A stretch of DNA of 64,000 nucleotides from Candidatus Poribacteria bacterium (GCA_965215015.1 OZ244042.1:4448001-4512000), one strand, 5' to 3'. Positions 37,907 through 53,728 are shown, counted from the first letter of the stretch. Notes: a model not told the origin generated them from the sequence alone. Program-made: numbers and translations.

Positions 37907-37920
37907 GAGGTATATTGCGT

Positions 37921-39804
37921 ATGCTCCATTTAATAAATGTTCTAAGATTCACACTCACTATTAGCATATTTCTCATTTTTATCTTATTTCCGCCTATGGC
38001 AGCTGCCAAACATATCATCATAGTTTATGATGTATCTGGTAGTATGGTGAGCCTCAGGGGTGGCGGGCGCGTAATCACATACATGGAATCCGAAGATATC
38101 CGTCGTGTCAATGAATACCTGACAGCCCTCTTATTCACAAATACTTCACAGTCTTTGCGCGATAGGGTCAACGACTCATATATCAAGGAATGTGATGCCG
38201 CGTTTGTCGGTAAACCCCTATACCAAAGTGGCGATGTCCTCACCTACGCCGAGTATGCAGAAGAGCGAACCCCAAAAATTAATAGAGCACAAGTTAGCAA
38301 AAACGAGTTGCAAGGGCAGCTGCCGAATCGGGACTCTCTCAATGGACAGGTCTCTTACTTACTGCGCGCAGAAGTTGAGGTGTATGATGTGTTATACAAT
38401 AATGCAGACGACGAAACGTATTGGGTTTTCGTAACAGATGGTGACATTGATAACAGTGGTAAAAGCGACCCAGATGTATCTAGGATTTTAAGACGACTTG
38501 CTGAAATTGAAGAGGAGTTTTTTGATCCAATGATTTATGGTGTCTTTGTCAATAACCATGTAAAAATTGAAGTCAGGCGACTCCAAAAACGGGACGACAT
38601 CGATTCAATTTTCATTGCTACATCAACGACATCGAAAGAGCCGGTGCAGGAAATTCAACTATCACTAGATGAAGAAGGAAAGTTTTTCAGCGAAACGCTA
38701 ACTATCGACACGGAGAGCTCTGAAAAAACGAAATTTAATCTCAGTAACGTCAATGTGGAGATTGTTGACCGAGATAATAGACCGCTTCAAATAACGAATG
38801 AAGACAACACAACAGGCATTCTCAGTATCGATCCTGTTGAGCTTCATGGGAATCCACCCCCGCATGAATTTCGTATCCTACTTCCCGGCAATCGTGAGAT
38901 CGCTGCACCGGACAACAGGATGAATCTTGAAGTTACCTATAGTTTCAACGGAGAAGATAAAGTTTTTACTGCACCCCAGATGAACTATACTGTGGAAATT
39001 AAAATCATCTATGTTGCCAGACTGAACGATCCCGATCGTCCTGCAAAGCAGTTAGAACTCCTGTTTTCTGACGACAAATATAGTGAATCTTTGACGATTC
39101 AGACTGAAAGTCCAAAGATAGATGCATTTCAGATTGACCAAATCCAATGTCATATTCAATACAGGGATAATCGTAAACTTAGTGATGCGGTTGTGCCAAA
39201 AAACATAAAACGTATAGATGAATCGTTTAGCGTGGAAGTGCCGAAGCAGGATCGTTTGGATTGGTATGGTAACAAGGTTGTCCTTGAAATTGACTATAAA
39301 TATAAAGAGGAAACGTTATCTAAAACAATTGAGATACCCTATAAATTGGTAGGCGGTGGCACTGGTTTCCCAATCTGGCTGCTCTGGGTGCTCCTTGTTC
39401 CAGTTTTAGGTGTAATAGTCTTTTTTCTGATTCGTAAGATAATAGGATGGATAAAAGTTGAACATCGAATTAGGTTGACCCAAGTCAACGAGGCAGGCAC
39501 GCCGTTGCATGAAACAGCGCATTTTACACTCGAAAACAAAATGACTCTTGAATTTGGGCCTCGGGGTCCCAATGAATTACGTTTTGATGTCGGAAGCGAA
39601 GCTTTTCTACATTGCGTCAAGAAAAATCTAATCCTATTTGCGGATGGTGATGATGAGGAAGGACAGATATTGGATTTGCCCGAAACATTAACATTAAGTC
39701 GTGGCGAAGATGAGGACGATGTCTGTGTCAAGTGTGAGATAACGGATGGTGCTTATGACGAACCGGAGGAAGATGATGATGATGCCAACCCACTTGATAT
39801 GTAA
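37921..39804 (+). CDS. Membrane-anchored vWA-domain protein
   Basis: Signal peptide, MIDAS DVSGS, VTDGD, beta-rich middle, TM (IWLLWVLLVPVLGVIVFFLI), acidic tail. AGGAGG RBS before ATG 37921. Confidence 0.75.
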   Translation: MLHLINVLRFTLTISIFLIFILFPPMAAAKHIIIVYDVSGSMVSLRGGGRVITYMESEDIRRVNEYLTALLFTNTSQSLRDRVNDSYIKECDAAFVGKPLYQSGDVLTYAEYAEERTPKINRAQVSKNELQGQLPNRDSLNGQVSYLLRAEVEVYDVLYNNADDETYWVFVTDGDIDNSGKSDPDVSRILRRLAEIEEEFFDPMIYGVFVNNHVKIEVRRLQKRDDIDSIFIATSTTSKEPVQEIQLSLDEEGKFFSETLTIDTESSEKTKFNLSNVNVEIVDRDNRPLQITNEDNTTGILSIDPVELHGNPPPHEFRILLPGNREIAAPDNRMNLEVTYSFNGEDKVFTAPQMNYTVEIKIIYVARLNDPDRPAKQLELLFSDDKYSESLTIQTESPKIDAFQIDQIQCHIQYRDNRKLSDAVVPKNIKRIDESFSVEVPKQDRLDWYGNKVVLEIDYKYKEETLSKTIEIPYKLVGGGTGFPIWLLWVLLVPVLGVIVFFLIRKIIGWIKVEHRIRLTQVNEAGTPLHETAHFTLENKMTLEFGPRGPNELRFDVGSEAFLHCVKKNLILFADGDDEEGQILDLPETLTLSRGEDEDDVCVKCEITDGAYDEPEEDDDDANPLDM

Positions 39805-39917
39805 AGCGCATGAAACAAAAACACACGAAGGATATTTGTTGTAAAGTATTTCTGTTCATGGTATTTTATGGACATACAATTCAGAAATTAATTAACACAT
39901 AGATAATAGGAGATTAA

Positions 39918-40316
39918 ATGGAAGGCATTGCTGATTTTTTTGGAGATCCGTTAGTATGGCCAGCAGTTGTCTACTTTATTGCTTACACTCTTGTATGGAT
40001 AATTGCATGGGCACTCGGTCAGTTGTCCAAGCAGCGAGTAAGTGTTGAACGTGCAGCAGCATTCGCCTGGGGAATTGCGCTTTTTATGCACCTACTCGGC
40101 GGAATTGTACTTATAATATGGCTGTGGGACAGAGCAAATAATCGATTCGCTGAATGGATGCATACAACCCTTTATCTATTATTCTATATAGTCATTATGA
40201 TTGTCGATGTTTGCTTGTTGTTTTCAGTACTAACCAAAAATACGAAAAAAAGAGGGACTGCCGCGCCGATGCCAAAACCAACACGTAAACCTCGTAATCC
40301 AAAAAAGAGGTCATAG
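39918..40316 (+). CDS. Small 3-TM membrane protein with basic tail
   Basis: Three hydrophobic segments, K/R-rich C-terminus, AGGAG RBS. Confidence 0.75.
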   Translation: MEGIADFFGDPLVWPAVVYFIAYTLVWIIAWALGQLSKQRVSVERAAAFAWGIALFMHLLGGIVLIIWLWDRANNRFAEWMHTTLYLLFYIVIMIVDVCLLFSVLTKNTKKRGTAAPMPKPTRKPRNPKKRS

Positions 40317-40362
40317 ACAATGATGTCGGCGAAATCTCTAACTAAATACGAAGGAGAACACG

Positions 40363-43300
40363 GTGATTACACCTACGATATTTGTTGGACTTGGAACAAC
40401 CGGAACCGATATTTTAAAAAATTTACGTGAACTTATGGCTGAAGAGTATGGGCACGCGGGGTTGCCACTTTTCCGCTATATTGCCATTGAGACAAATGGG
40501 GACGTGAATGTGCAAAATACAAACCAAATGGAGGATTATGAACGAATCAACCTTATAAGGGCAACAATTCCGAACGTTAAACCGATTGACCTTAGGTTAA
40601 CGCCTGGAGAACCACGATACAACCCACATTTGGCGGATTGGCTGGATCCTGAACTCTTGAAAATTGAAGCGGGTGGTTTTATGGCTGGGGCTTCAAATAT
40701 ACGCATGGCAGGTAGATTGTGTTTATGGGAAAACTGGGCAAACGCCCGATCTACATTCGTCAACGCAATCGGTGCTATTACGGCACCCGCTACGAAACGG
40801 AAAACAATCAATATTCTAACAGAGCGTAATAAAATTGCAGGACACCCACTCGATGATGCCGGCTTCATTAAGGTCTATGTGCTTGGATCCCTCTGTGGAG
40901 GTTCTTGTAGTGGGATGCTTATTGATGTCGGATATTTTTTTAGACATCTCCTCAGTGCATACGGCGATAAATCAAGAATTGATGGTATTTTCACAATGTT
41001 CGACGAAACCCACGCTGCGAATCCTGACGACATGTTTAACATACGTTCAGCCAATTGTCATGCAAGCCTTTCGGAGTTAAATTACTATCATGATCAGGAG
41101 ACAACTTACGATATAACTTTTCCAGATGGGCGGAAGATTGAGAATATGCGAAAAAAGCCGTTTGATTATACGCTGTTTGTATCACCCAGTGGAGAAACTG
41201 CGGGCAACCAATTCTTAACAGGAGCCGGCGACTTTGATGAAGACGGTTTGAACTTGATGGTAGCACTGAATCTTTTTGCTGAATCTGCTGCAGACACAGC
41301 CGATATAAAAAATGCAATTCGCACAAATTATATATCTCATGCAAATTTTGGGACACGAAACCCCGTGAGACAGGGTGAAATCCCCACTATGATACGCTAT
41401 ATGGCCAGTTTCGGATTAACAGCAGTATGGTATCCCAAATATCGCATCGCAAGTGCTGCTGCCTGCTCAATCAGCGATAAATTATGTGAAAATTGGTTGG
41501 GATCACACATTCCCCAAGCCACAACTGTAAGAGATGCGGAAACGGAATGGAATCAGATTCTAAAAGAGAATATCGATACATTAACTAGTCCAGAAGGACA
41601 GCTCTCAATTAGAAATCGGATTAATACGCATCTTGAAGATGCAAGGCAACAATGGCTCAATACAGAAATCTCAGCCAATCAACTAAGTCAGAATATGACG
41701 AATTTTCCAGACGGTGATTCATTCAGGAAGAAACTTGAGCAGGGTGGAGAGTATGTTGAATTGATGAAAATGCAAGTGTCTGAATGCAAAAAGGCGTTTC
41801 TCGATGCGATTGAACAAAGTTTGAGGAACCAATTAGGAAGTATTGATTTTGAGGGAACGCGAGGCCTGGAAGATGTGAAGATATTCTTTGAAACGCTCGA
41901 TAAAGGTATAGAAAGCTCTATACAAAAGTGCCCTGATCGGATGCCGCCTTTAAAGTTGGATAAATTGGATTTCTCCGCGATGGAGAGAGCAGATAATAAT
42001 CTTTGGTTGAGGCTTATTTTTCTCCGGGATGATGCTGTTCAAGCACATCGAAAAAACATGGTCGAACAATATTGCAATTTGATTACCGCACCTAGGAAAG
42101 GTTTTTATGAGTCGGTTCGGAATCATTTCATCAGACCGATATTGCAGGAAATTCGTTCCGAACTCGGTTTCGGCGTCATCCCGACAGATGAAGGTGAACC
42201 TAACCGGCGTCGAACGATTAAACAGCGATTGGATCAGATAGAAGGGAATCTAAGCCAGTGCATTCAGAAATTCAAAACCAAATATGATAAAGCTATTAAT
42301 CCACCAATATCTGAATGTGTGAAAATTGTTGCTAATAACCCAGAAAATCGAATTGATACGGATGCAATTACACTGAGCCACCAGATCTCACAATCGGATG
42401 AGGGTATTGACTTGCTTGGTGGGGAACCGATGGCTGCTTTTTTAGAAAAAGAACAGAAAGACATTATCGCTCAGATGACTGAAACTTACCGACAACTATC
42501 ATTAGATCGGATTCAAGTTGATGATGTCGTTACAAAGGCTCAGGAACTTTTGGGCTCGGGGAGTTTCGATATCCAGAATCTCGCCAGCCGCTCAAATCCA
42601 TACCAAATGTTTACCCCTACTTACGAACCGTTTGCTGTCGACGATTCACCAAATATCATCTTTGGCAACTCAGGGGAGGCTTTAACTGACTTGAATAACA
42701 GTTTGAGTGGGCAAGGATTCTCGTTTCAAGTCAGTCCCTCTTCTGTAGAGCATCTCCTTTTTTTCTATCAGGAGGAAGCAGGTTTCGCCTTAGATGACCT
42801 TGAGTCTCATGACACGCTTGCCGCTAAATACAGCCAGTCTCCAGGAGAGTATGGACATTCAACCCATAAAGATGCTGACTTTTATAACCTTGAGTTTTAC
42901 TACAAAAAGCAAGTATTGCAATACTGGTGTCTTGCTTTAGGAAGGATTGTCCCTGAAATCTGGAAGCATATCAATAGAGACGCATTTTCTGGCGTTTTTT
43001 ATCAAACTCAGACCGAAGATATTTATTATGAATATAACGTTGACGGGTTATCTGAACGACTCGGCTTACATAACGATCCAGGGGGAATTAGAAATCTATC
43101 CCAGAAGCGAAACGAAACTGAGTATAACGGATTTATGAGATTAATCCGATCGTGTTTCGCAGATCTGGATCGCGAACAGATTGAGCAGCGCATTAATTCA
43201 TTGCTGAGGGAGATTGAAGACCCCAAGGAACATAGGGATATAAGTAAATTCTTTCGTCAGTTTTTAGATGATGTCTACCCTGAAAATGCTTCGATAGATT

Positions 43301-43743
43301 ATACAGTTTATAATTCAGTGACAGGTTCTACCTTTTTCGAGAGACCACCTCAAGGACCAGACACCACACCTACACCCCCACCAAGCCAAGATCCCAGCAA
43401 TCAAATAGACCCAGACTCTTATGACGCAGTTGCTCCCGAAGAAAGTGAGATTGATGCTGGATCATCTAATCCGCCTGATAACGAACATAATGAGGTGGGG
43501 GCAACATCGCCTCAAGACACACCATCACCACCAGCTGCAACCAAAGATGAATATAAGTGGACTGAGGCAGAACCAACGCTTGACGAAGAAGCAACGGACG
43601 AAGAAGATACACCTGAACAACAATCGCAGCCTGAAACCGATGGGCAGAAAAAACAGCCACATTCTTCTAAAGCCTTCGATGTTGCTGATGTCGATATGCG
43701 GAAGGTATTGAGTCGTGATAACACACCTAAAAAAAAGGAGTAG
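40363..43743 (+). CDS. Tubulin/FtsZ-like GTPase-domain protein (Tubulin_2 / FtsZ-like 1 type)
   Basis: FVGLGTTG, GA..IR..GRL, GSLCGGSCSG signature, helical middle, acidic disordered tail. Confidence 0.85.
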   Translation: MITPTIFVGLGTTGTDILKNLRELMAEEYGHAGLPLFRYIAIETNGDVNVQNTNQMEDYERINLIRATIPNVKPIDLRLTPGEPRYNPHLADWLDPELLKIEAGGFMAGASNIRMAGRLCLWENWANARSTFVNAIGAITAPATKRKTINILTERNKIAGHPLDDAGFIKVYVLGSLCGGSCSGMLIDVGYFFRHLLSAYGDKSRIDGIFTMFDETHAANPDDMFNIRSANCHASLSELNYYHDQETTYDITFPDGRKIENMRKKPFDYTLFVSPSGETAGNQFLTGAGDFDEDGLNLMVALNLFAESAADTADIKNAIRTNYISHANFGTRNPVRQGEIPTMIRYMASFGLTAVWYPKYRIASAAACSISDKLCENWLGSHIPQATTVRDAETEWNQILKENIDTLTSPEGQLSIRNRINTHLEDARQQWLNTEISANQLSQNMTNFPDGDSFRKKLEQGGEYVELMKMQVSECKKAFLDAIEQSLRNQLGSIDFEGTRGLEDVKIFFETLDKGIESSIQKCPDRMPPLKLDKLDFSAMERADNNLWLRLIFLRDDAVQAHRKNMVEQYCNLITAPRKGFYESVRNHFIRPILQEIRSELGFGVIPTDEGEPNRRRTIKQRLDQIEGNLSQCIQKFKTKYDKAINPPISECVKIVANNPENRIDTDAITLSHQISQSDEGIDLLGGEPMAAFLEKEQKDIIAQMTETYRQLSLDRIQVDDVVTKAQELLGSGSFDIQNLASRSNPYQMFTPTYEPFAVDDSPNIIFGNSGEALTDLNNSLSGQGFSFQVSPSSVEHLLFFYQEEAGFALDDLESHDTLAAKYSQSPGEYGHSTHKDADFYNLEFYYKKQVLQYWCLALGRIVPEIWKHINRDAFSGVFYQTQTEDIYYEYNVDGLSERLGLHNDPGGIRNLSQKRNETEYNGFMRLIRSCFADLDREQIEQRINSLLREIEDPKEHRDISKFFRQFLDDVYPENASIDYTVYNSVTGSTFFERPPQGPDTTPTPPPSQDPSNQIDPDSYDAVAPEESEIDAGSSNPPDNEHNEVGATSPQDTPSPPAATKDEYKWTEAEPTLDEEATDEEDTPEQQSQPETDGQKKQPHSSKAFDVADVDMRKVLSRDNTPKKKE

Positions 43744-43749
43744 GCGGTT

Positions 43750-46440
43750 ATGGTAGATGTGGTCTGCTCAAAATGCGATGTTGGATGGGTAATACATTCG
43801 CATGATAAATACTGCGGCTATTGTGGGTGTAAAGTCTTCGATTTTTCGGTGAAATGGGAACAAGAACCGCGGATTTATGCTGGCGACGATGCGAATATCC
43901 ATGTCTTAACCATTTTCGTAGAAAACACCGGGGCGTATCCGATTACATTCCAACCGATACGAACAGGACGAGATAATACAATTCTATTTCCACAAGGGAA
44001 CGGCAGCTCATTCACAGTTAACGCAGGTCAACGGCACCCTATCCCGATTCAGGTAAATCCCGCAAACTTAGCACAATACGCTGAGACCATCACCGTGCGA
44101 GCACAAGAGGCACCGCAGAATCTTGTCAGTGAGAAATCACTGCATCTTGAAGCCTTACCCCCTCCCGACTTTAACCTGACTCCTAATCCAGTAACGGTTC
44201 GTTATCGGAAGGGCACTGAAAGGGTTGAGGAAGAACTCTACCTTGAAGTGCAGCAGAGTCAATTTTATATCAGTGATATTACAGCCACGGGAGGATCAGT
44301 CCTTCGCGTTGCCTATTCCCAACAACTCCACCAAGAAAACAGCGCATTCAAAAAAATCCTATTGAAGATTGATTGCAACCAACTCACCGATGAACCAAAT
44401 GGGGTAAGACTCAGCTTTGAACTCTGCGGCTTATCTCAACCTATTGAAAAGCGAATTGAGATTCAAAGAGAGATAGTACCAGATCCGCCAAGACTATTCG
44501 TTCCACAAATGAATCTGGACATTACACAGGAACGTGAGAGAACACATACCCTAACGCTTCAGAACAGAGGCGAACGCACGTTGACAATCCAAAATATCGC
44601 ATTCACCGATCCTTGTAATTTAATCCAAATGTTAAATGTTGAGTGTCCAATCACGGTTGAAGGAGGCGGACAACATAATGTTGAAATGCAGTTATTGGCT
44701 GTTGATGTTGAACCCGGAGATTACCCCATCAACTTCACCATCCACTCCAATTGTGAGACTCGTCCAGAATATGAAGCGGGCCTGAATGTACAGGTTAATG
44801 CACTGGAACCATATCCGCATTATCTCGCTATAGATTTCGGCACAACGAATTCGTGTTGTGCCTACCTCGGGTCTCAAGATGTTCCACAACTTATCCAATT
44901 AGACGGTCACTCGGAAATCATACCTTCCTCAATTATCTATCACAGCCAACCCCAAAATGGGGTAGAATACACAGTTGGTTATGGAGCTGAGACTTATCGT
45001 ACCAGCGAAATTGATGGACCTTACTACATCAGTTCTGTAAAAAGGTGGTTAGGATTTAACTGGAATCGCCAATTTCCTAACAATCGGAGATTGCAACCAA
45101 GCGATGTAGTTGCTGATATACTCAAACATATCATTGAGCGCGCTGAAAAACATCTTGACACGATTTCAACAAGATCAAAAATCAAAAAATGTGTGATTGC
45201 GTATCCGACGATGTTTGATACAAGAAGACGGGAAGGCATAAAACAAGCATTAAGAAGAATAGGAATTACAGATCTTAAACTTATTGATGAGGCATCCGCG
45301 GCTTCGCTCGGAGCTATCTCTCAACAGAGGCAACAAGGTGATTATAGGTTATTGGTTTATGATTTTGGCGGCGGCACGATTGATATCGTCTTATCACACG
45401 TAACAAACCACGGACAGGAAACTACAATTGAACCCCTTGCACACGGCGGAAATCCAAGATATGGTGGTGATGATGTAACACAAGCAATTGTCGACTTTGT
45501 GTTAGATGAGTTTGAAAGACGGATTCAACAAGAAAATCCAAACCTTAGTTTTAGTATCCCTTACCTGAGTCCGAGAAAAGTATGGCAGCCTTCAGGAGAT
45601 CGGGAAAGGGATAGAGCAACACTACTTAACACGCCCTTTTTGTATAATAGAGCAGAAGAATTAAAAAAAGAACTAAGCAATCAAGATACAGCAAATCATG
45701 ATTTTCCTTTGAGCGTTGTTGTTGGAGATGATGTCCGCTCTCTTGATAATCTCACACAAGGTAACATAAACGTGAGTATTTCAAGAGAAGAATTAAATTC
45801 TCTTGTGGCTCATGAATTACGCAAAACCTTTGTTGAAATTGACACCATGATTAGTAATCATGGTGGAGCCCCGCCTGATATCGTGATACTCGCAGGGCAG
45901 TCATCAAGAATGCCTATAGTCAAAGAGATGATGGCAGCCCACTTCCAAGAGGAATATCACACAAACGTTGATATCCAACTCAGTGAGCTCCCCAAAGGAT
46001 GCGTTGTAATAGGTGCAGCGCAATACGGTATGACTTACTCAATGCCGAGTCAAGTTTGGTTTGATATTAGAAGATTTCAAAGAACACACTCCAGCATCGG
46101 TATAATGCAATTTGATGGCAGCCGACAGATTTTTACAGAAATTATTCCGAGAGGGCGACTTATACCCGACGAAAGTTTCGGTAGTATGAATTTACCGCTA
46201 CGCACGGTAGAAACTAATATTGATGTCTGTGAACGTTTTGGAGAAAATGGTGAGCTCTCACCCATTGCCGAATACACCCTAGAACTACCAGAAAATATAC
46301 CAAGAGAAGCGTTAAGAAGAGCACAATTGCAAATGTCGGTTGAAGATAGCGGTGAGATTAAAGTGGTCGCCATTGTAGATGGTGAAGAATATACATTCAC
46401 AGTAAGAAGGAGAACACCAGAGTTTGTAGATGAAATCTGA
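43750..46440 (+). CDS. Hsp70-family ATPase with N-terminal Zn ribbon and Ig-like domains
   Basis: IDFGTTNS, DEASAA, YDFGGGTID, GGDD, LAGQSSRMP. N-terminal CSKC...CGYCG and .N.G...L. Ig-type strands. Confidence 0.88.
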   Translation: MVDVVCSKCDVGWVIHSHDKYCGYCGCKVFDFSVKWEQEPRIYAGDDANIHVLTIFVENTGAYPITFQPIRTGRDNTILFPQGNGSSFTVNAGQRHPIPIQVNPANLAQYAETITVRAQEAPQNLVSEKSLHLEALPPPDFNLTPNPVTVRYRKGTERVEEELYLEVQQSQFYISDITATGGSVLRVAYSQQLHQENSAFKKILLKIDCNQLTDEPNGVRLSFELCGLSQPIEKRIEIQREIVPDPPRLFVPQMNLDITQERERTHTLTLQNRGERTLTIQNIAFTDPCNLIQMLNVECPITVEGGGQHNVEMQLLAVDVEPGDYPINFTIHSNCETRPEYEAGLNVQVNALEPYPHYLAIDFGTTNSCCAYLGSQDVPQLIQLDGHSEIIPSSIIYHSQPQNGVEYTVGYGAETYRTSEIDGPYYISSVKRWLGFNWNRQFPNNRRLQPSDVVADILKHIIERAEKHLDTISTRSKIKKCVIAYPTMFDTRRREGIKQALRRIGITDLKLIDEASAASLGAISQQRQQGDYRLLVYDFGGGTIDIVLSHVTNHGQETTIEPLAHGGNPRYGGDDVTQAIVDFVLDEFERRIQQENPNLSFSIPYLSPRKVWQPSGDRERDRATLLNTPFLYNRAEELKKELSNQDTANHDFPLSVVVGDDVRSLDNLTQGNINVSISREELNSLVAHELRKTFVEIDTMISNHGGAPPDIVILAGQSSRMPIVKEMMAAHFQEEYHTNVDIQLSELPKGCVVIGAAQYGMTYSMPSQVWFDIRRFQRTHSSIGIMQFDGSRQIFTEIIPRGRLIPDESFGSMNLPLRTVETNIDVCERFGENGELSPIAEYTLELPENIPREALRRAQLQMSVEDSGEIKVVAIVDGEEYTFTVRRRTPEFVDEI

Positions 46441-46458
46441 ACTGAGAATGGAACACCA

Positions 46459-47718
46459 ATGCCAAAAAGCGTATGTATCATCAACCTTTCAGCACCTGAA
46501 ATTCAGATAACCGTTTTAGTTGACAATCAGCGACAAGACATCAATCTTCGACTGCCATGGGAGGTAGGGTTTCGGCAAGAAAATGATAACACACTAGTTC
46601 CCTGTTTCGGTGAGGCATTCAAACGTCTCAACTCAAACCATCCCGCAGAAGTGCGGTTTCCGGATTTAGATGTGAAATTCAAGGAAATCAGGGATGAAAA
46701 AACCTTGCAATGCTTGTTTCACGCTTTTTTTGAGGAGATTTTTCACCAGCAGTTACCCGAACATGGCTATCCGATAGATGCGATGTCTGTATATGCCATC
46801 ACACCGTATCACTGGACACCAACACATCGCCAACAACTCAGAAAGGCACTCAAGCGTGTAAAAAGTAGGGAGCAAGTTTCATTTCTCAAGCCATCAAAAG
46901 TAACACTTCGGGGCCTGTTCAGCCAAATTCTATGCCTCTCGGCATATTATCAGAAGGCATGGATGGATATACTCACAGCCCCAAACAACTGCCATCTATT
47001 TCTAATAGATTTCGCACGGGACGATCTTGTTGTCTATCAAATGATTTGTAGTCAGTTGGAAGACAATGTTAAGGTTGAGCTGACCGATATGCTGCGATTT
47101 ACCGAATACTCCTCGGAAATACAAAAAACGATTGCAGGTGTACAAAAGGCATTGCAAAAGGTTAAAGGTGAACAGCACGTTGTAGTCGGTTTTTCTGGCA
47201 GAATTGACGATGATGATAATGTTGCGTTAACTATTATTGAATCGTTGCGCGCACGGTGCAGGGCAACTTTTCTCGAGCCACAGCCAATCGCAACACTTTT
47301 GGGCGGCGCAGAATTGGTTCGGCAATTTGAGAAAAAAAATCTTGAAAGACCACTTCACTTTGTCTATCATTTCTGCTACGGTGTGCGGTTACCTGATGGA
47401 AAATGGGTTGAACTTGTCCCCAAAACATGGACACCCCCTTATCACCGCAAAAAGGCCTTTCGCGCCACAGAATCGCTTGAAAAATTCGATGTCCAGCTTT
47501 TCTGCGGTTTATCCTTGACAAATAACAGCGATGTCCATCATGTCGCGACGCTTGAGATTGACTATACGGAGAATAACAATTTTTCATCGCGCAATGCGAT
47601 GGAATTTATACTTTCAATTACCATGAACGCCTCTACACACGGCACATTTACTGTACATTTTCCGAATCCGCAGGAACCGAGATCTGTTGAATTCACAGTG
47701 CCAACTTTGATGGACTAA
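46459..47718 (+). CDS. Degenerate Hsp70/actin-fold protein
   Basis: ITP..WT..HRQ.LR.A, LIDF, ATLLGGA and YGV....G.W.ELVP....P echo Hsp70 segments. Phosphate motifs are absent. Confidence 0.55.
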   Translation: MPKSVCIINLSAPEIQITVLVDNQRQDINLRLPWEVGFRQENDNTLVPCFGEAFKRLNSNHPAEVRFPDLDVKFKEIRDEKTLQCLFHAFFEEIFHQQLPEHGYPIDAMSVYAITPYHWTPTHRQQLRKALKRVKSREQVSFLKPSKVTLRGLFSQILCLSAYYQKAWMDILTAPNNCHLFLIDFARDDLVVYQMICSQLEDNVKVELTDMLRFTEYSSEIQKTIAGVQKALQKVKGEQHVVVGFSGRIDDDDNVALTIIESLRARCRATFLEPQPIATLLGGAELVRQFEKKNLERPLHFVYHFCYGVRLPDGKWVELVPKTWTPPYHRKKAFRATESLEKFDVQLFCGLSLTNNSDVHHVATLEIDYTENNNFSSRNAMEFILSITMNASTHGTFTVHFPNPQEPRSVEFTVPTLMD

Positions 47719-47755
47719 AACCTTAATCACTTCAGATTATACAAGGGAAAACGCT

Positions 47756-48922
47756 ATGTCCTATTTTAGATTTATGTTATTACTCCTCGTATTAGTACTG
47801 TTTGGATTCGTTTCAATTGGGTATTCACAAGGTAACACAGAAAACCCATACGCTGATCCCATTTTTTGGAAATTTTTGTTATTCGTTGTGGTTGCAGGCG
47901 CGATTTCTACTGTGGTTATATTGTTCGTGTTTCAAATGGTTAAGTGGTGGAAATCAATGTGGCTAAGAACACAAGCATTTCTGACAGAAATGGATCGAGT
48001 TAAACAGGAATTGACGGTAAGATTGGACTCCATTCAAAAAATTAGTATAGATTCCGCCAACAAATTGGAAAAAATGACACATGAACAAACATCAATTCAA
48101 AATGAACAGAAAAATATCCTGAATGATATTGGGCAACTAAAAGACATTACTGTATCTAATACGGAAATTGAGGGGGGCGAGGAGCATACATCAATTGATT
48201 ATCGGAGGGCAGCGGCGAGTGAGGTCCAATCAGCGCAAGAGCAAGTATCGGAATTGGTTGAGGCTTACAAAGATGGAGAGCCAATTGGGTTCATTAACAT
48301 TAAAGATCCAACGCCGGGTCAAAAGGCGTTGATGATTTTAAATTGGATAGCGCACGCTATAGAGGACTGGGTAAATGAATTAGAACAGTCCCGAACAGCG
48401 AACCCAGACCTCATTCAAACGCTGAAATCTGCGAATCAGGCTATCAAAGAGAAACTAAAAAAGGCCCGTGGACAGAAACCACCTTCGCCAGAACCACTCG
48501 ATCTGGATACTGATGTCAGCACAGATGCAGCATATAACGAACTAAAAAATGAGTGTCTTGTGTATGTGTCGCGTTATGAAGCGATGCTTCGTAAGCATCA
48601 ACTGGAATGCAAAATAGCCGAAACAGAATATAACCAGTTCATTCCGAAATTTATCAAAGATAGGTTATTCAATGGTGTGGCGAGATTTATCAATTTTGAA
48701 CAATTGCCTGAACAAGTCGATAAATTTTTACAAATTGTGGATTATGAGGTGGTCCCGATTGAGATAGGAGAAACGAAAGCCGACGCGCGTTTGCATGACA
48801 TTCAAGCCTCACGGCGAATCGGTGTTGACCCTGGAACCATTATTGAGGTCGTTTTACCGGGATTGCGACGGAAAGCAGACGGTGAAATCGTGCAAAAACC
48901 TGTGGTGATTCGCGGAGAGTGA
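47756..48922 (+). CDS. Membrane-anchored coiled-coil protein with GrpE-like C-terminus
   Basis: Two N-terminal hydrophobic segments, coiled coil, C-terminal D..LHD......PGTI.EV.LPG....G.IVQKPVV resembling the GrpE head. Confidence 0.65.
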   Translation: MSYFRFMLLLLVLVLFGFVSIGYSQGNTENPYADPIFWKFLLFVVVAGAISTVVILFVFQMVKWWKSMWLRTQAFLTEMDRVKQELTVRLDSIQKISIDSANKLEKMTHEQTSIQNEQKNILNDIGQLKDITVSNTEIEGGEEHTSIDYRRAAASEVQSAQEQVSELVEAYKDGEPIGFINIKDPTPGQKALMILNWIAHAIEDWVNELEQSRTANPDLIQTLKSANQAIKEKLKKARGQKPPSPEPLDLDTDVSTDAAYNELKNECLVYVSRYEAMLRKHQLECKIAETEYNQFIPKFIKDRLFNGVARFINFEQLPEQVDKFLQIVDYEVVPIEIGETKADARLHDIQASRRIGVDPGTIIEVVLPGLRRKADGEIVQKPVVIRGE

Positions 48923-50168
48923 CTTGATGAAAGAAAAGGATACCCGACCCGCTAACATTCAAAGCAAAGAAACTGTCCGCCCCCAAAATCAAATTGGAAG
49001 CATATTGAACATATCTGTCATAACAGAATATGAAAATGGAGATGTTTATCTAATCTTGGACAATAGAGATGAAAAAGCAATATCAATTACCATTTCCTAT
49101 GCGGAATCTGATAAGTCAATCGCCAAACCATTGGAACACTTTGAGCTGTCCGGTGATAGTCAACGAAAAGTGTCATTACCAAAGGGATTTGAGAAATGGG
49201 AAGAGCTCAAATTTGATGTAAGGGAGGAAAATCCAATAAGGGAGAAAAATAGACAGATTCCTAATACTTCTCTAAAGAAACTCTCGGATGAAGCTAAACG
49301 GCAGACAAAGGGTGATCCGCCCCAACCTAAAACCGAACCTTCAATTTCTAAATCAGAACAAACGGACAACCCAATAAATATAATAGGCAAAGATCTAAAA
49401 CCTGACATAGAAACGATCAATCCGCCTGAGCGACGTTCAACTGATTATCAGCGCAAAGCAGAAACAACTGTTCAAGAGACACGGGAACAAATAACAGAAT
49501 TGGAGTGTACCTACAAGGACGGAGGGCCAATTGATTTCATTAACATTCAAGATCCAACGCCGGGTCAAAAGGCGTTGATGATTTTAAATTGGATAGCGCG
49601 CGCTATAGAGGACTGGGTAAATGAATTAGAACAGTCCCGAACAGCGAACCCAGACCTCATTCAAACGCTGGAATTTGCGAATCAGGATATCAAAGATAAA
49701 CTAAAAGAGATCCGTGGACCGAAATCACCTTCGCCAGAATCACTCGATCCGGATACTGATGTCAGCACAGATGCAGCATATAACGAATTCAAAAATGAGT
49801 GTCTTGTGTATGTGTCGCGTTATGAAGGGATGCTTAGCAATTATCAACTGGAGCGCAAAATAACCGAAATAGAATATAACCAGTTCATTCCGAAATTTAT
49901 CAAAGATAGGTTATTCAATGGTGTGGCGAGATTTATCAATTTTGAACAATTGCCTGAACAAGTCGATAAATTTTTACAAATTGTGGATTGTGAGGTGGTC
50001 CCGATTGAGATAGGAGAAACGAAAGCCGATGCGCGTTTGCATGACATTCAAGCCTCACAGCGAATCGGTGTTGATCCTGGAACCATTGTTGAGGTCGTTT
50101 TACCGGGATTGCGACGGAAAGCAGACGGTGAAATTGTGCAAAAACCTGTGGTGATTCGCGGAGAATAG
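48265..50168 (+). repeat. Direct duplication of about 650 bp (48265-48922 and 49510-50168)
   Basis: Long identical runs, e.g. AAGATCCAACGCCGGGTCAAAAGGCGTTGATGATTTTAAATTGGATAGCGC, occur in both copies. Confidence 0.95.
48924..50168 (+). CDS. Soluble paralog with GrpE-like C-terminus
   Basis: C-terminal roughly 220 aa near-identical to the preceding gene, with an unrelated hydrophilic N-terminus. Confidence 0.65.
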   Translation: MMKEKDTRPANIQSKETVRPQNQIGSILNISVITEYENGDVYLILDNRDEKAISITISYAESDKSIAKPLEHFELSGDSQRKVSLPKGFEKWEELKFDVREENPIREKNRQIPNTSLKKLSDEAKRQTKGDPPQPKTEPSISKSEQTDNPINIIGKDLKPDIETINPPERRSTDYQRKAETTVQETREQITELECTYKDGGPIDFINIQDPTPGQKALMILNWIARAIEDWVNELEQSRTANPDLIQTLEFANQDIKDKLKEIRGPKSPSPESLDPDTDVSTDAAYNEFKNECLVYVSRYEGMLSNYQLERKITEIEYNQFIPKFIKDRLFNGVARFINFEQLPEQVDKFLQIVDCEVVPIEIGETKADARLHDIQASQRIGVDPGTIVEVVLPGLRRKADGEIVQKPVVIRGE

Positions 50169-50174
50169 CACACA

Positions 50175-51149
50175 ATGTCTATCAGACTCCTTATCGTTTT
50201 GCTCTTCAACGGGCTTCTTATCAATGCGGAGGCTTTTGCACAAGATGCTCTAAGCTTTGTCCAGATTGTAGATGGAATGATTCAGCGGCGTCCGCCCAAT
50301 ACTCGGCAGACAATTGGAAGGCGATATGTGTGGAATTTTCGCGGAAGACCCTACACCATCCTAATGACAATTGGCTTGGAGCAGTATAATTCTTACTCCG
50401 GCAGAGAACGCTACGATATTCCCAAATTAGTGGAAGAAGGGAGAACAACAATCGGCAATCTGACGCGTGAGTTCCGACGTACCTTCCAACGAAATCAGAG
50501 CTGGACCAAACAGGACCGCGTTGATTTCGTTTTAAGCTTTGTCCAATCCCTGCCGTACACGCTTGATAACGTGACTACAGGCTATGATGAATTTCGACGA
50601 TACGCAATTGAAACTTTGATTGAAGGAGGCGGAGACTGCGAAGATACGACGATCCTTGTGGCGGCTATCCTGCGCGGGTTAGGAGAAAAGACCGCACTGA
50701 TTTTCACCCCGGGACACATCGCACTCGGTGTCAGCGGAGACTACACAGGTACATCGTTTACCTTCAACGGCACAAACTACTACTACTGCGAAACAACCGG
50801 AACCGGTTGGACTGTTGGCAGGCTGCCTGCATCTGTCGGCAATGTGGCTGCGATTGTCCCGTTAAGCCCCTCTACAATACCCACACCTGTGCAGCCTAGG
50901 CCGACACCGCAGGTGCCAGAGCTTACACCTACACCCGAACCGCCACCTATACAACCAGAGCCGCAACCCGATAACAGAGAATCTTCAGAAACAAATAGTG
51001 CAGCCGGTATGGTGATTGTTACGCTCTTTATTCTCATCGGTTTGGGGATACTGATCGCGTTTCTGGTCTATCGTTTCATCATTTCAGATAACGATGATGA
51101 CATAGAAGATGATGACACACACGAATCAACAAATCCGTTAGATTGGTAA
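50175..51149 (+). CDS. Membrane-anchored transglutaminase-like (Cys-His) protein
   Basis: Signal peptide, FVQSLPY, GDCED, PGHIALG, YYCETT, Pro-rich linker, TM, acidic tail. Confidence 0.8.
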   Translation: MSIRLLIVLLFNGLLINAEAFAQDALSFVQIVDGMIQRRPPNTRQTIGRRYVWNFRGRPYTILMTIGLEQYNSYSGRERYDIPKLVEEGRTTIGNLTREFRRTFQRNQSWTKQDRVDFVLSFVQSLPYTLDNVTTGYDEFRRYAIETLIEGGGDCEDTTILVAAILRGLGEKTALIFTPGHIALGVSGDYTGTSFTFNGTNYYYCETTGTGWTVGRLPASVGNVAAIVPLSPSTIPTPVQPRPTPQVPELTPTPEPPPIQPEPQPDNRESSETNSAAGMVIVTLFILIGLGILIAFLVYRFIISDNDDDIEDDDTHESTNPLDW

Positions 51150-51160
51150 CCGATTCGCCT

Positions 51161-53728
51161 ATGATTAACCACCTCAAAGAAATCTATCGCGAATTATATC
51201 TACCCCCGGCAGATTCCGCAAACCCACCGTTCAGGGTTACACAGATTAATGCCCCTTACCTTTATACCGATGCGAACCTCTATGTAGATACGTTCGATAG
51301 TCCGAACCAATCTGTAAAGTTTGAGGTATCAAATGTTGGGAGTGGAAGATTAAATGTAGAAGGGATTCGTATTCCCCGTGGGGCCAAAAGGTGGATAAGG
51401 ACAGCTGAGGGCCCACAATCTGCTACACTCACATCAAATTCGGAACCGAAAGAAATTGAGCTGAACATTCTGCTAAGAGAACTACCGAACCCTTCATCCG
51501 TGAATGTTGTAAAACTGACCGTCCTCTCCAATTCAGAACGGAAAACGTTTAGCGAGATATTGTTAGGTGTGCGTCCCCCAGAAAATCAGTCTGTGAATTT
51601 GACACTTCCCGAATATCTCAACTTTGGAGAAATAACTGTCTGTAAGGTTTTGATTGCTAATCGTCGTGAAGATGCGGCGGCACCCCCAGTCGAATTTCTA
51701 CTCATCGAAGATTTTACACTTAATCCACCAACACGTCTTGAAATAACACAAAACGATGAATCCACTTTTGACGCGTATATTTTCACTTCAAAAGGTGAAC
51801 TACATTACAAATTAGATTTACGGACACCGGGTGTCGTAATGCCACAACAGGAACAATCTGGAATTAATTTCCAACAGACTGTTCCTGTGTCAATTGTTAG
51901 TCAAATATTTTCTGAGCATGCGATAACGTCCGATTCTGACTGGTTAATTGCACCGTCTCAAATCTTTACTACTGGATCTGCTATAATCGATTTACCTGTT
52001 TCTGTAAACGTTGAAAAACTGGAACCGGGGCGAAATTGCGGCGAACTTGTTGTAGCCGATAAGAAAACACAGGTATGGGTATGGTCCAAAGTTGTTAATG
52101 AAACAGCACTGACGTTAGAGAAGGAACAACCGAATATCCGCCACGTTGAACAATTCTCAGACCAAGAAGAGCCGCTGCCAATTGAAGTTGTATCAGCAAA
52201 TGAACCTTATCAATCTCTGATGATTTTTGAAGACATAGATTTTCAATTCCCACTGGCAGGCGATCAACGGACAGGTTATCTGATGGGCGACTTTAATCAA
52301 TGGGCACCGCGCACGTTGTTCCTTGAGAAAAGAGATGATAGAGGTAGCGTCACGTTAAGTGTTTCTGAAGGAATATACTGTTATCATGCTGAAATTGACG
52401 GTGAGATGCGGCTTGACCCTGCGCGGTTATACGAAATAGTCTGCTGTCAACACGGGTTAGCGTCCAAATTACAGATCGACAGAGCTGAACAAAAGGTGAC
52501 ACTGGAAAACAGGTCGGAACAGAAGTTAAAGCTAAAACTTCAATCTGCTACCAAATGGATGCGAATTAAACCTGAGACAATTGCTCTTCCCGCCAGCAAA
52601 AGAACTGAGATAACTGCGGTATTCCACCCGGAACATCTGCTGCCGGGGCTCAATTTAGGCTGGCTCCAGATGGAAACCGTAAGAGAACCGAAAAGGTCGC
52701 TTCATACGCCAATCTATGTTATCGGTATGACAAATGGGGCTGTTCCTGTTCTCCGAACTAAAGAGTTGGATTTTCCACAAATGGAACAGGGGAAAGTAGA
52801 AGGCATTCCGCTTACGATCGATATACTCGGTGAAGGAGAACTAAAGGGGGAAATTCAGCCGTCTACAGTCTTGCGTTTTGTGGAGGGCGATCTACATGTC
52901 CGAAACACAACAGCATTTAAACCGATGGGGGTTGCCCCACTTGTCCAGGTGTTAACTGAAAGACCCTCTAACGCTTATCGTAAACAGATCTCTGCGTCTC
53001 TGCTTACGGACTGCTATCTTATGAACCACAGGATGCATCGTTTCAAAGCCAAATATGATATGATTCACCTTGTCTCAGACCCGCCCGCTCTGTGCTTTCC
53101 TAAAGTTTATCTGTTTGATGACCCACAGCACGTCGATATAACGATAAAACGCAGTGATGGTAAAGGTAATGTTGTGTGTAGCGTTGAAATACCCGATGCT
53201 TTAACAGAGGGTGGATTCTTGAAGGTTAAGAACAGTGCTGCGAAAAATAATACTGGACATTATGAATTTGTTATTAATCCACAGGCTCGCACAAATGCTG
53301 GACGAGTTTCAGATACTTTACGCTTTATGGACACAAATTCCGGAATGGTACTGCCAATTCAATTCGTGGCAGATATTGTCGGAGGTGAAGCGAAGATTGA
53401 TGTTAAGACTCAGGGACAACGTTTAAATCTATTATCTGGTGGCATACCGTTAGTGATTACCAACATCAGTAAAGCTGAATTGCGGATATTTAAGTTGCTA
53501 TTTAAATATCGGCGGTTTTCTCTCTCTCCATATCTGACCTCGCAGCAGCGCACCCTCCTTCCCGGGGAATCTATTGAGAGGTTCATTAAGATGGAAGCAA
53601 CAGTCGGCTTGTTAGGTAGAACAATAGTCAAGGATACGCTTATTATTAGACTCAATGATCCACAATTTCCCAAAGGTGTCCTTAAAAAGGAGATTGTGGC
53701 TGAAATCCAAGGCCGTTTCCTGAATTGA
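51161..53728 (+). CDS. Multi-Ig-fold protein with a CBM48/AMPK-beta-like domain
   Basis: Repeated Ig-type starts (VSNVGSGRL, LENRSEQKL, ITNISKAEL). LMGDFNQW...G.Y.Y...IDGE.RLDP matches the E-set glycogen-binding pattern. Confidence 0.6.
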   Translation: MINHLKEIYRELYLPPADSANPPFRVTQINAPYLYTDANLYVDTFDSPNQSVKFEVSNVGSGRLNVEGIRIPRGAKRWIRTAEGPQSATLTSNSEPKEIELNILLRELPNPSSVNVVKLTVLSNSERKTFSEILLGVRPPENQSVNLTLPEYLNFGEITVCKVLIANRREDAAAPPVEFLLIEDFTLNPPTRLEITQNDESTFDAYIFTSKGELHYKLDLRTPGVVMPQQEQSGINFQQTVPVSIVSQIFSEHAITSDSDWLIAPSQIFTTGSAIIDLPVSVNVEKLEPGRNCGELVVADKKTQVWVWSKVVNETALTLEKEQPNIRHVEQFSDQEEPLPIEVVSANEPYQSLMIFEDIDFQFPLAGDQRTGYLMGDFNQWAPRTLFLEKRDDRGSVTLSVSEGIYCYHAEIDGEMRLDPARLYEIVCCQHGLASKLQIDRAEQKVTLENRSEQKLKLKLQSATKWMRIKPETIALPASKRTEITAVFHPEHLLPGLNLGWLQMETVREPKRSLHTPIYVIGMTNGAVPVLRTKELDFPQMEQGKVEGIPLTIDILGEGELKGEIQPSTVLRFVEGDLHVRNTTAFKPMGVAPLVQVLTERPSNAYRKQISASLLTDCYLMNHRMHRFKAKYDMIHLVSDPPALCFPKVYLFDDPQHVDITIKRSDGKGNVVCSVEIPDALTEGGFLKVKNSAAKNNTGHYEFVINPQARTNAGRVSDTLRFMDTNSGMVLPIQFVADIVGGEAKIDVKTQGQRLNLLSGGIPLVITNISKAELRIFKLLFKYRRFSLSPYLTSQQRTLLPGESIERFIKMEATVGLLGRTIVKDTLIIRLNDPQFPKGVLKKEIVAEIQGRFLN

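What the first reader, a model, noticed from the sequence alone, without database searches (positions are those of the whole stretch)
39750..51149. Shared C-terminal tag (acidic run plus NPLD[M/W]) on two unrelated single-pass membrane proteins of the block
Seen: the vWA protein ends ...EPEEDDDDANPLDM* (39804) and the transglutaminase-like protein ends ...DDDIEDDDTHESTNPLDW* (51149). Both have a signal peptide, an extracytoplasmic domain, a TM and a cytoplasmic tail. Inference: a system-specific docking peptide, analogous to EEVD-type tails, read by a cytoplasmic component such as Hsp70, the propeller or the tubulin-like protein. This is internal evidence that the genes form one machine.
Basis: partly seen in the sequence, partly recalled or inferred. 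Interest (0 to 1): 0.72.

Follow-up and report, generated by a model that had tools for sequence, protein, structure and literature searches.

The report
Shared C-terminal tag on two membrane proteins
Two unrelated membrane proteins of a 20-kb accessory gene cassette in a sponge-associated Poribacteria genome end in the same conserved acidic tail with a Pro-Leu-Asp motif, most likely a docking peptide for a still unidentified partner from the same cassette.

Summary
The vWA protein (37873-39804) ends ...EEDDDDANPLDM and the LapG/transglutaminase-like protein (50175-51149) ends ...DDDTHESTNPLDW. They are the only 2 of 8,618 ORFs in the 5.94-Mb genome that end NPLDx (expected 0.07).

The tag is conserved: 116 of 120 orthologs of the transglutaminase-like protein and 114 of 120 of the vWA protein keep it, as do vWA relatives at 28-36% identity. 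Codons vary synonymously, and the two tails use different Leu codon families.

The conserved core is an acidic linker plus [N/D/S]-[P/A]-L-[D/K/G]-x-COOH. The last residue (M/W) is not conserved.

The genes lie in a discrete 20-kb cassette: ZorAB-like stator, Zn-ribbon protein with probable propeller, vWA-FHA protein, Tubulin_2/FtsZl1, Hsp70-like protein and others. It is present in 21 of 176 genomes of the phylum.

A sister cassette keeps the stator and the transglutaminase-like protein. It lacks the vWA, propeller, Hsp70-like, 419-aa and paralog genes, and there the tail is absent in 9 of 9 loci read. These form one clade, so this is one event.

The system-specific docking-peptide reading is therefore supported.

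The parts
39739..39801 (+). Cytoplasmic C-terminal tail of the vWA protein (residues 623-643): acidic run, then NPLDM-COOH (motif at 39787-39801)
   Evidence: Sequence. Residues 110-124 of the AF2 model of residues 520-643 have pLDDT about 50, so they are disordered and not docked in cis. P at -4 and L/I at -3 in 114 of 120 orthologs.
51069..51146 (+). Cytoplasmic C-terminal tail of the LapG/transglutaminase-like protein (residues 299-324): acidic run, then NPLDW-COOH (motif at 51132-51146)
   Evidence: Sequence. [P/A]-L-D-x-COOH in 116 of 120 orthologs. L322 is invariant, and D323 and S318 are at least 90% conserved, in 44 aligned sequences.
37873..39804 (+). vWA protein: N-terminal hydrophobic segment, vWA domain (about 38008-38622), beta-rich middle, TM (39373-39429), FHA-like cytoplasmic domain (about 39457-39738), tail
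   Evidence: Hydropathy. vWA fold and invariant DxSxS. FHA fold by Foldseek (all of the top 28 rows are FHA domains, E 0.017-0.23) and by VIA-align (Z 8.8 to Rad53 FHA; 39 of the top 40 rows are FHA domains or FHA-like folds).
50175..51149 (+). LapG/transglutaminase-like protein: signal-like N-terminus, Cys-protease-like ectodomain (about 50469-50819), Pro-rich linker, TM (51012-51068), tail
   Evidence: Profile match to LapG 4fgo, E 3.7e-5. C155 and H181 invariant. Hydropathy.
34136..36539 (+). ZorA-like (34136-35890) and ZorB/OmpA-like (35913-36539) stator pair at the head of the cassette
   Evidence: PADLOC ZorA3 1.2e-15 and ZorB3 6.7e-29. Pfam OmpA 3.8e-16.
36536..37906 (+). 456-aa cytoplasmic protein: N-terminal Cys-rich Zn-ribbon-like region plus probable PQQ-like beta-propeller. 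Its gene overlaps the vWA gene start. Candidate reader.
   Evidence: Invariant Cys pattern and the GHWNRAFARYCTQC stretch. The propeller is only a lead from the protein atlas (scores 0.82-0.88). No Pfam or PDB sequence match.
39918..40316 (+). 132-aa three-TM protein with a basic C-terminal tail ending ...RNPKKRS
   Evidence: Hydropathy. An NPKK-type end in 11 of the 18 sequences compared (window plus 17 loci).
40363..43743 (+). Tubulin_2 / FtsZl1-family protein, 1126 aa, with a disordered acidic C-terminal region and a conserved basic end peptide
   Evidence: Pfam PF13809 4e-43. End peptide in 14 of 19 (window plus 18 loci).
43750..46440 (+). Zn-ribbon + Ig-like + Hsp70-like protein, 896 aa, with a substrate-binding beta domain but no lid; ends ...PEFVDEI. 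Candidate reader.
   Evidence: Pfam HSP70 1.3e-34. Alignment to DnaK runs through the linker into the SBD-beta.
46459..47718 (+). 419-aa conserved protein of unknown fold with an invariant basic stretch (residues 112-151, net +9); ends ...VPTLMD. Candidate reader.
   Evidence: DUF5716-like only by the atlas (0.94). No link to the Hsp70 NBD by hhalign (prob 0.14).
47756..50168 (+). Paralogous pair (388 aa, membrane-anchored; 414 aa, soluble) sharing a C-terminal region of 281 aligned residues, 76% identical. Candidate readers.
   Evidence: No family found.
51161..53728 (+). Ig-like-repeat protein (probable ATG at 51161) directly behind the transglutaminase-like gene; its C-terminal half has net charge +13
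   Evidence: Weak Ig-like Pfam hits. Charge. Start placed from the DNA behind the stop.

Best explanation
The two tails are a selected, cassette-specific short linear motif. It consists of a disordered acidic linker of about 20-35 residues ending in [N/D/S]-[P/A]-L-[D/K/G]-x-COOH. It sits on the cytoplasmic ends of the cassette's two single-pass membrane proteins, one with a vWA ectodomain and one with a LapG-like cysteine-protease ectodomain.

It most likely works as a docking peptide. Both envelope-facing proteins would be tethered through the same tag to one cytoplasmic partner encoded by the same 20-kb cassette. What happens at the ectodomains would thereby be coupled to the cytoplasmic Hsp70-like / tubulin-like machinery.

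Shown: presence, uniqueness in the genome, deep conservation, selection at the protein level, predicted disorder of the vWA protein's tail, and loss of the tail where the vWA/propeller/Hsp70-like/419-aa/paralog module is absent.

Inferred: cytoplasmic location, docking as the function, and a partner inside the cassette.

The partner is unidentified. By co-occurrence the candidates are the 419-aa protein, the 388/414-aa paralogs, the FHA-like domain of the vWA protein, the Hsp70-like protein and the Zn-ribbon protein with the probable propeller.
For: Uniqueness. 2 of 8,618 ORFs end NPLDx, against 0.072 expected.

Conservation.
- 116 of 120 orthologs of the transglutaminase-like protein and 114 of 120 of the vWA protein keep the core.
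- In 18 syntenic loci the relaxed motif ends 32 of 430 ORFs. All 32 belong to these two families: 16 of 18 vWA (counting the separate tail fragment of the split L019 gene) and 16 of 17 transglutaminase-like.
- vWA relatives at 28-36% identity still end DPLNR, SPLDL, SLLNR, DPLNI or RLDQI. In the representative set 15 of 58 fit [PLVAR][LI][DN]x(1-2)-COOH, against 78 of 8,618 background ORFs.

Selection on the protein.
- Pro, Asn and Asp codons vary synonymously.
- The Leu codon is CTT/CTG/CTC in one gene and TTA/TTG/CTA in the other.
- The DNA downstream is not conserved.

Disorder. Tail pLDDT is about 50 beside a confident FHA-like domain.

Link to the cassette.
- The transglutaminase-like protein occurs in 55 of 176 genomes, the vWA protein in 21 of 176.
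- 25 matches in 24 genomes stop at the TM. All 9 such loci read are tail-less and lack any blastp hit to the propeller, vWA, small TM, Hsp70-like, 419-aa or paralog proteins, while keeping the ZorA/ZorB-like pair.
- No other protein of the genome carries the tag, which argues for a reader that comes with the cassette.
Against: - No binding was tested. The co-folding tool was never available.
- The tail-less proteins form one clade (100/100 support). The correlation with the module is therefore one evolutionary event, not nine.
- A distant system (L025) has a Zn-ribbon/propeller-like, a Tubulin_2, an Hsp70-like and a vWA protein, but its vWA protein has a short basic end and no tag. The tag is thus not a general feature of such systems.
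- Position -2 can be D, K or G and the last residue varies, so the specific core is only about three residues.
- A first covariation hint (R56 of the 419-aa protein) failed on a larger set.
Confidence: 0.55

Rival explanations
1. The reader is the FHA-like cytoplasmic domain of the vWA protein itself. The tail of the transglutaminase-like protein would bind it in trans, with the vWA protein's own tail competing in cis. The tag would then pair the two membrane proteins rather than recruit a soluble hub.
For: The cytoplasmic domain has an FHA fold, and FHA domains are peptide-binding modules. A solved FHA-tail complex (6hc0, DgcB) is among the structural matches. In the loci read here the FHA-like domain occurs only with the tag, and the tag-less vWA protein of L025 lacks it. 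The tails are rich in Ser/Thr just before the motif.
Against: AF2 did not dock the protein's own tail on the domain (pLDDT about 50). None of the columns conserved at 90% or more in this domain (L34, F42, F52, D53, V54) is the Arg, Ser, His or Asn expected of phosphothreonine-binding FHA domains (that expectation is recalled knowledge). No kinase was found among the 12 cassette proteins.
Confidence: 0.12
2. The tag is a degradation or turnover signal. A housekeeping protease or adaptor such as FtsH or ClpXP would recognise the free cytoplasmic C-terminus and set the level of both membrane proteins together.
For: The tails are disordered, cytoplasmic, at least 20 residues long and end in a fixed motif. 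From recalled knowledge, such tails are what membrane-protein proteases start on.
Against: No other ORF of the genome carries the tag (2 of 8,618). That is odd for a signal read by a general protease. The tail is absent where the cassette's cytoplasmic module is absent, although housekeeping proteases would still be there.
Confidence: 0.12
3. The acidic run is the working part, as an electrostatic spacer, a cation-binding segment or a partner for the basic tails of the tubulin-like and small TM proteins. The PLD end would be only a cap.
For: Net charge is -14 and -9 in 31 and 26 residues. Two other cassette proteins carry conserved basic ends: NPKK-type in 11 of the 18 small TM sequences compared, and ...N-x-P-K-K-[E/G] in 14 of 19 tubulin-like proteins.
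Against: The acidic run varies in length and sequence, while P(-4) and L(-3) are the best-kept positions. Some vWA orthologs have lysine-rich linkers (DTKSNDESFEGSTDRVDPLKV) yet keep the PL end.
Confidence: 0.08
4. Coincidence or hitch-hiking: the shared end has no function.
For: The specific core is short.
Against: Expected count 0.072 against 2 observed. Conservation in 230 of 240 orthologs with synonymous codon turnover. Retention at 28-36% identity.
Confidence: 0.03

Closest known systems
EEVD tails of eukaryotic Hsp70/Hsp90 read by TPR co-chaperones (recalled knowledge)
   Same: A very short acidic motif at the extreme C-terminus behind a flexible linker, shared by two otherwise different proteins so that one reader can dock on both.
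   Different: Here the tag sits on membrane proteins, not on the chaperone. The motif is P-L-D based. No TPR domain was found in the cassette. The Hsp70-like protein of the cassette has its own conserved end...PEFVDEI.
C-terminal dilysine (KKxx) signals of type-I membrane proteins read by the COPI beta-propellers (recalled knowledge)
   Same: A motif of 4-5 residues in fixed register with the free C-terminus of a short cytoplasmic tail of single-pass membrane proteins. A probable propeller protein is encoded next door.
   Different: Acidic rather than basic. Bacterial. In some distant homologs the register shifts by one residue (DPLNQI, RLDQI). Reading by the propeller is untested.
Acidic C-terminal tip of bacterial SSB (DDDIPF) and the C-terminal peptide of FtsZ (recalled knowledge)
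   Same: A disordered linker plus a conserved terminal peptide that acts as a docking hub. For SSB, also an acidic run followed by Pro and a hydrophobic residue at the very end.
   Different: Those tails sit on the soluble hub protein. Here they sit on membrane proteins. The tubulin-family protein of the cassette carries a different, basic end peptide. One locus (L027) keeps a full-length homolog of the tubulin-like protein beside a tail-less transglutaminase-like protein.
FtsZl1 (Tubulin_2)-vWA-OmpA operons (Makarova and Koonin 2010, PMC2875224; search passages read) and tubulin/HSP70 conflict systems (Kaur et al. 2020, PMC7159879; search passages and section 29 read)
   Same: The cassette holds a Tubulin_2 protein, a membrane vWA protein with an intact DxSxS motif, an OmpA-family protein and an Hsp70-like protein.
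   Different: No GAP1-type GTPase, DnaJ or GrpE was detected. The ZorA-like partner, the LapG-like protein and the shared tag are not mentioned in the passages I read. Supplementary tables of both papers were not opened and may list such operons.
Sortase / exosortase-type C-terminal sorting signals such as LPXTG and PEP-CTERM (recalled knowledge)
   Same: A shared C-terminal signature on several proteins of one system.
   Different: Those signals run motif, then TM helix, then basic cluster, and are cleaved outside the cell. Here the order is TM helix, then acidic linker, then motif at the free cytoplasmic end.

Membership tests
FtsZl1/Tubulin_2-vWA operon (Makarova and Koonin 2010) | A Tubulin_2 (FtsZl1) family protein | tested here: met
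   Pfam PF13809 E 4e-43, 148.5 bits against a cut-off of 27.
FtsZl1/Tubulin_2-vWA operon (Makarova and Koonin 2010) | A neighbouring vWA-domain protein with an intact MIDAS DxSxS motif | tested here: met
   No Pfam hit. However, the AF2 model (pLDDT 89.1) matches vWF-A and integrin I domains (E 4.5e-4), and D14, S16 and S18 are invariant in 65 sequences.
Zorya anti-phage system | A ZorA (MotA-like with long tail) and ZorB (MotB/OmpA-like) pair | tested here: met
   PADLOC ZorA3 1.2e-15 and ZorB3 6.7e-29.
Zorya anti-phage system | A type-specific effector gene (ZorC/D, ZorE or ZorF/G) beside ZorAB | tested here: not met
   None of the other 10 cassette proteins matched any PADLOC model at E 0.01 or better.
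EEVD-type tail read by a TPR clamp | A TPR-domain reader in the system | tested here: not met
   No TPR family among the Pfam hits of the 12 proteins at E 0.01 or better.
Sortase/exosortase-type C-terminal sorting signal | The order motif, TM helix, basic cluster at the C-terminus | tested here: not met
   The order here is TM, acidic linker, motif.
Phosphothreonine-binding FHA domain | FHA beta-sandwich fold | tested here: met
   Foldseek: all of the top 28 rows are FHA domains (E 0.017-0.23, prob up to 1.0). VIA-align: Z 8.8, rmsd 3.4 over 97 residues to Rad53 FHA, and 39 of the top 40 rows are FHA domains or FHA-like folds.
Phosphothreonine-binding FHA domain | Conserved Arg/Ser/His/Asn phosphopeptide-binding residues | tested here: inconclusive
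   Only L34, F42, F52, D53 and V54 are at least 90% conserved among 77 sequences. No structure-based residue mapping was done.
LapG-like bacterial transglutaminase-like cysteine proteinase | Catalytic Cys motif and His | tested here: met
   Profile match to LapG 4fgo over ...GGGDCED... at E 3.7e-5. C155 and H181 are invariant in 44 sequences. The whole-protein NCBIfam LapG score is far below its cut-off (18 against 320 bits), so this is a relative, not an equivalog.

The most novel reading that the evidence does not exclude
The cassette may use a small code of C-terminal tails to assemble a membrane-attached machine. Acidic ...NPLDx tails on the two envelope-facing proteins, and basic NPKK-type ends on the tubulin-like and small TM proteins, would dock on dedicated cassette proteins. 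Events sensed outside by the vWA domain, the LapG-like protease and the Zor-type stator would then recruit or release a tubulin/Hsp70-based cytoplasmic assembly. That would be a bacterial counterpart of cargo-tail recognition by eukaryotic coat adaptors.
Probability: 0.12. Interest if true: 0.85.

Novelty: new variant of a known kind. Interest (0 to 1): 0.58.

Why it matters
Operons that pair FtsZl1/Tubulin_2 with a vWA protein have been known from comparative genomics since 2010, with no experimental handle on how their parts fit together. A short, conserved, cassette-specific tag on the only two proteins that span the membrane gives such a handle. Synthetic tail peptides or tail deletions could identify the cytoplasmic hub. 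They could also test whether the ZorAB-like stator, the tubulin-like protein and the Hsp70-like protein act in one complex. The natural tail-less sister cassette offers a ready comparison.

Tried and rejected
Co-folding. The queue was always full and the tool was finally declared unavailable. Nothing was folded, so no statement on binding can be made.

Genomic context of the distant tag-bearing vWA homologs.
- The metagenome scan failed with the 16-sequence alignment (error).
- It found nothing with a 4-sequence alignment or a single protein.
- A plasmid search found nothing.
- Cluster look-up named only one of 10 proteins, as Poribacteria.

Covariation between tails and candidate readers.
- A scan for substitutions specific to the loci where both tails end in R/K gave 12 columns in 11 proteins.
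- R56 of the 419-aa protein looked promising in 19 loci.

Concerted change of the last residue. The transglutaminase-like tail ends basic in 9 of 14 pairs where the vWA tail ends basic, against 8 of 38 otherwise (52 pairs). The 9 are close relatives, so this is at most one or two events.

Domain ideas not borne out.
- The 419-aa protein as an Hsp70 nucleotide-binding domain: hhalign probability 0.14, no PDB hit.
- The 388/414-aa paralogs as GrpE-like (my reading by eye): no support from a PDB profile search or Pfam.

Earlier notes of this scan. Nothing was returned. One search was a word-format error.

Literature. Searches gave no paper on this tag or on a ZorAB/tubulin/Hsp70 cassette in Poribacteria.

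Expression. Contigs of one metatranscriptome library, 85-95% alike, cover all 30 bins of 37873-47800. They come from a relative, and DNA carry-over is not excluded.
Full report
**What is there.** The window lies in a single-contig 5.94-Mb genome. Its close relatives are named Candidatus Poribacteria in public records. Between 34136 and 53728 there is a run of 12 co-directional genes with lower G+C than the flanks, 0.41-0.46 against about 0.50-0.55.

The gene products are:
- a ZorA-like protein and a ZorB/OmpA-like protein (PADLOC 1.2e-15 and 6.7e-29);
- a 456-aa protein with a Cys-rich N-terminus and a probable PQQ-like propeller (atlas lead only);
- the vWA protein;
- a 132-aa three-TM protein;
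- a Tubulin_2/FtsZl1 protein (Pfam 4e-43);
- a Zn-ribbon/Ig-like/Hsp70-like protein (Pfam 1.3e-34);
- a 419-aa protein of unknown fold;
- two paralogs of 388 and 414 aa (76% identical over 281 residues);
- the LapG/transglutaminase-like protein;
- an Ig-repeat protein.

**The observation.** Hydropathy gives each protein an N-terminal hydrophobic segment and one later TM.

The domain names hold up. Residues 40-290 of the first protein fold (pLDDT 89.1) into a vWA domain (Foldseek E 4.5e-4 to vWF A1) with an invariant DxSxS motif. The profile of the second protein matches LapG (4fgo) over the GGGDCED catalytic stretch (E 3.7e-5).

Behind its TM the vWA protein has a folded domain of about 100 residues with an FHA fold (pLDDT 81.7; Foldseek and VIA-align). 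Then comes the tail, which the model leaves disordered (pLDDT about 50).

**Chance.**
- NPLDx-COOH ends 2 of 35,711 frames of 60 aa or more and 2 of 8,618 ORFs of 100 aa or more.
- From the composition of ORF ends 0.072 are expected, so P(2 or more) = 0.0025.
- A relaxed motif hits 6 of 8,618 ORFs. Only these two also have an acidic run.

**Conservation.**
- Of 120 listed homologs of the transglutaminase-like protein (61-100% identity), 116 end [P/A]-L-D-x. The counts are NPLDW 57, NPLDR 28, SALDQ 10, with the rest spread over other variants.
- Of 120 homologs of the vWA protein (54-96% identity), 114 have P at -4 and L/I at -3. The counts are NPLDV 25, NPLDR 21, DPLK[IV] 17, NPLDI 9, DPLGV 9, NPIDV 7, with the rest spread over other variants. 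Four of the 6 misses look truncated.
- In 18 syntenic loci taken from genomes of the phylum, the relaxed motif ends 32 of 430 ORFs on both strands. All 32 are in these two families.
- In a search of 1.8 billion representatives, vWA relatives at 28-36% identity keep an acidic linker and ends such as DPLNR, SPLDL, SLLNR, DLLNR, DPLNI, DPLNQI and RLDQI. There 15 of 58 fit a loose pattern, against 78 of 8,618 background ORFs.
- The last residue is free, and position -2 is D, K or G in the vWA family.
- Codons for Pro, Asn and Asp vary synonymously among loci. The Leu codon family differs between the two genes. The DNA downstream is not conserved.

Selection therefore acts on the peptide, and the two tails are not copies of one DNA stretch.

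**The cassette.** In the same genus, the two genes that flank the block (32999-33754 and 54114-55676) lie 38-122 bp apart in 14 of the 18 genomes that hold both. They lie 20.1-20.6 kb apart in 4. The vWA protein is found in 21 of 176 genomes of the phylum. The block is thus a discrete accessory cassette.

**A natural comparison.**
- The transglutaminase-like protein is found in 55 of 176 genomes.
- 25 matches in 24 genomes stop at the end of the TM.
- I read 9 of these loci. All 9 proteins, 62.6-65.5% identical to the window's up to the TM, end 9 residues after it (...KEQREY and the like), with no acidic run and no PLD.
- Each follows a ZorA/ZorB-like pair.
- None of these cassettes has a blastp hit to the propeller, vWA, small TM, Hsp70-like, 419-aa or paralog proteins. 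Eight instead carry a short Tubulin_2 protein and other genes.
- One (L027) keeps a full-length homolog of the window's tubulin-like protein (975 aa) and remnants of the Ig-repeat gene.

So the tail goes with the vWA/propeller/Hsp70-like/419-aa/paralog module. It does not go with the stator, nor (one locus) with the tubulin-like protein.

The caveat is important. The 9 tail-less proteins form one clade (100/100 support), so this is one evolutionary event.

A distant system (L025) combines a Zn-ribbon/propeller-like, a vWA, a Tubulin_2 and an Hsp70-like protein, but its vWA protein has no FHA-like domain and a short basic end. In the loci read here, the components seen only together with the tag are the FHA-like domain, the 419-aa protein, the paralogs and the 132-aa TM protein.

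**Mechanism.** The best reading is a docking peptide that brings both envelope-facing proteins to one cassette-encoded cytoplasmic partner (confidence 0.55). The main arguments are uniqueness to the cassette, deep conservation of a terminal three-residue core behind a disordered linker, and loss of the tail together with the module.

Co-folding was unavailable throughout, and a covariation lead failed on more data.

The rivals are reading by the protein's own FHA-like domain, a degron for a housekeeping protease, a purely electrostatic role, and chance. They are listed with their evidence in the rival explanations.

**Comparison with what is known.** In working logic the tag resembles EEVD tails, COPI dilysine signals, the SSB tip and the FtsZ C-terminal peptide (all recalled knowledge). 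It is a member of none of them: no TPR reader was found, the charge is opposite to dilysine signals, and it sits on membrane proteins.

The cassette belongs to the broad class of FtsZl1-vWA operons (PMC2875224, passages read) and tubulin/HSP70 conflict systems (PMC7159879, passages and section 29 read). It has ZorAB-like genes but no known Zorya effector. I found no description of the tag in the passages read or in five literature searches. The supplementary tables of the two papers were not opened.

**Verdict.** This is a real, conserved, cassette-specific C-terminal motif. It is a new variant of a known kind of feature, of moderate to good interest because it gives an experimental handle on an uncharacterised tubulin/Hsp70/stator system.

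Noticed in passing
window 33755-54113: The 12-gene block is a discrete cassette of about 20.3 kb with lower G+C. In 14 of 18 same-genus genomes that hold both flanking genes, the flanks are 38-122 bp apart. In 4 they are 20.1-20.6 kb apart.
   Followed up: yes
window 34136-36539: A ZorA3/ZorB3-like stator pair heads the cassette. None of the other 10 proteins matches a PADLOC model. The stator appears to be combined with non-Zorya partners.
   Followed up: partly
window 40363-43743 and 39918-40316; loci L006-L023: Other cassette proteins also have conserved C-terminal ends. The tubulin-like protein ends ...F[DS]VADVDLK..L.R[DG]N.PKK[EG] in 14 of 19. The small TM protein ends NPKK-type in 11 of 18. 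The Hsp70-like protein ends ...PEFVDEI. The 419-aa protein ends ...VPVLMD in 16 of 19 and P-x-LMD in 18 of 19 (the window's own ends VPTLMD). The paralogs end ...QKPVVIRGE.
   Followed up: partly
loci L031-L038 (for example L031:2916-14804): A sister cassette, suggested by matches in 24 genomes, was read in 8 loci. It holds proteins of about 470 aa and 155 aa, a short Tubulin_2 (479 aa in L031, Pfam 8.8e-10), proteins of about 1000 aa and 340 aa, a ZorA-like and a ZorB-like protein, and a tail-less transglutaminase-like protein. Its function is unknown.
   Followed up: partly
L025:5039-17398: A distant relative of the system holds a Zn-ribbon/propeller-like protein, a 484-aa vWA protein with a basic end, a TM protein, a Tubulin_2 protein (1177 aa), a trypsin-like TM protein and a Zn-ribbon/Ig/Hsp70-like protein (989 aa). 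The last ends ...VPILDEIPEGESDDDPGF, so an acidic run sits on the chaperone-like protein instead.
   Followed up: no
own genome G000:C1:2291135-2294014 (outside the window): A second Tubulin_2 gene (959 aa) stands alone, with no vWA candidate (no DxSxS-bearing ORF) in the 32 kb inspected around it. That region was not scanned against families.
   Followed up: partly
window 47756-50168; L019 and L023: The 388- and 414-aa paralogs are 76% identical over 281 residues. In two loci this domain is fused to the Hsp70-like protein, giving 1164 and 1209 aa. This points to a functional link with the chaperone-like protein.
   Followed up: no
window 46060-46120 (Hsp70-like residues about 771-790): In the alignment to DnaK, the hydrophobic interdomain linker (DVVLLDVTPLSLGIE) corresponds to FDIRRFQRTHSSIGIM. 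The canonical VLLL linker is therefore replaced by a basic stretch.
   Followed up: no
L019 (G171:C1:5681213-5701212): In this locus the vWA gene is split into 518 aa plus a separate 159-aa fragment that carries ...DPLKV. The tubulin-like gene is in several pieces. The copy is possibly decaying.
   Followed up: no
window 37873-47800: Contigs of one metatranscriptome library, 85-95% alike, cover all 30 bins of this stretch. They belong to a relative. Transcription is not shown.
   Followed up: partly
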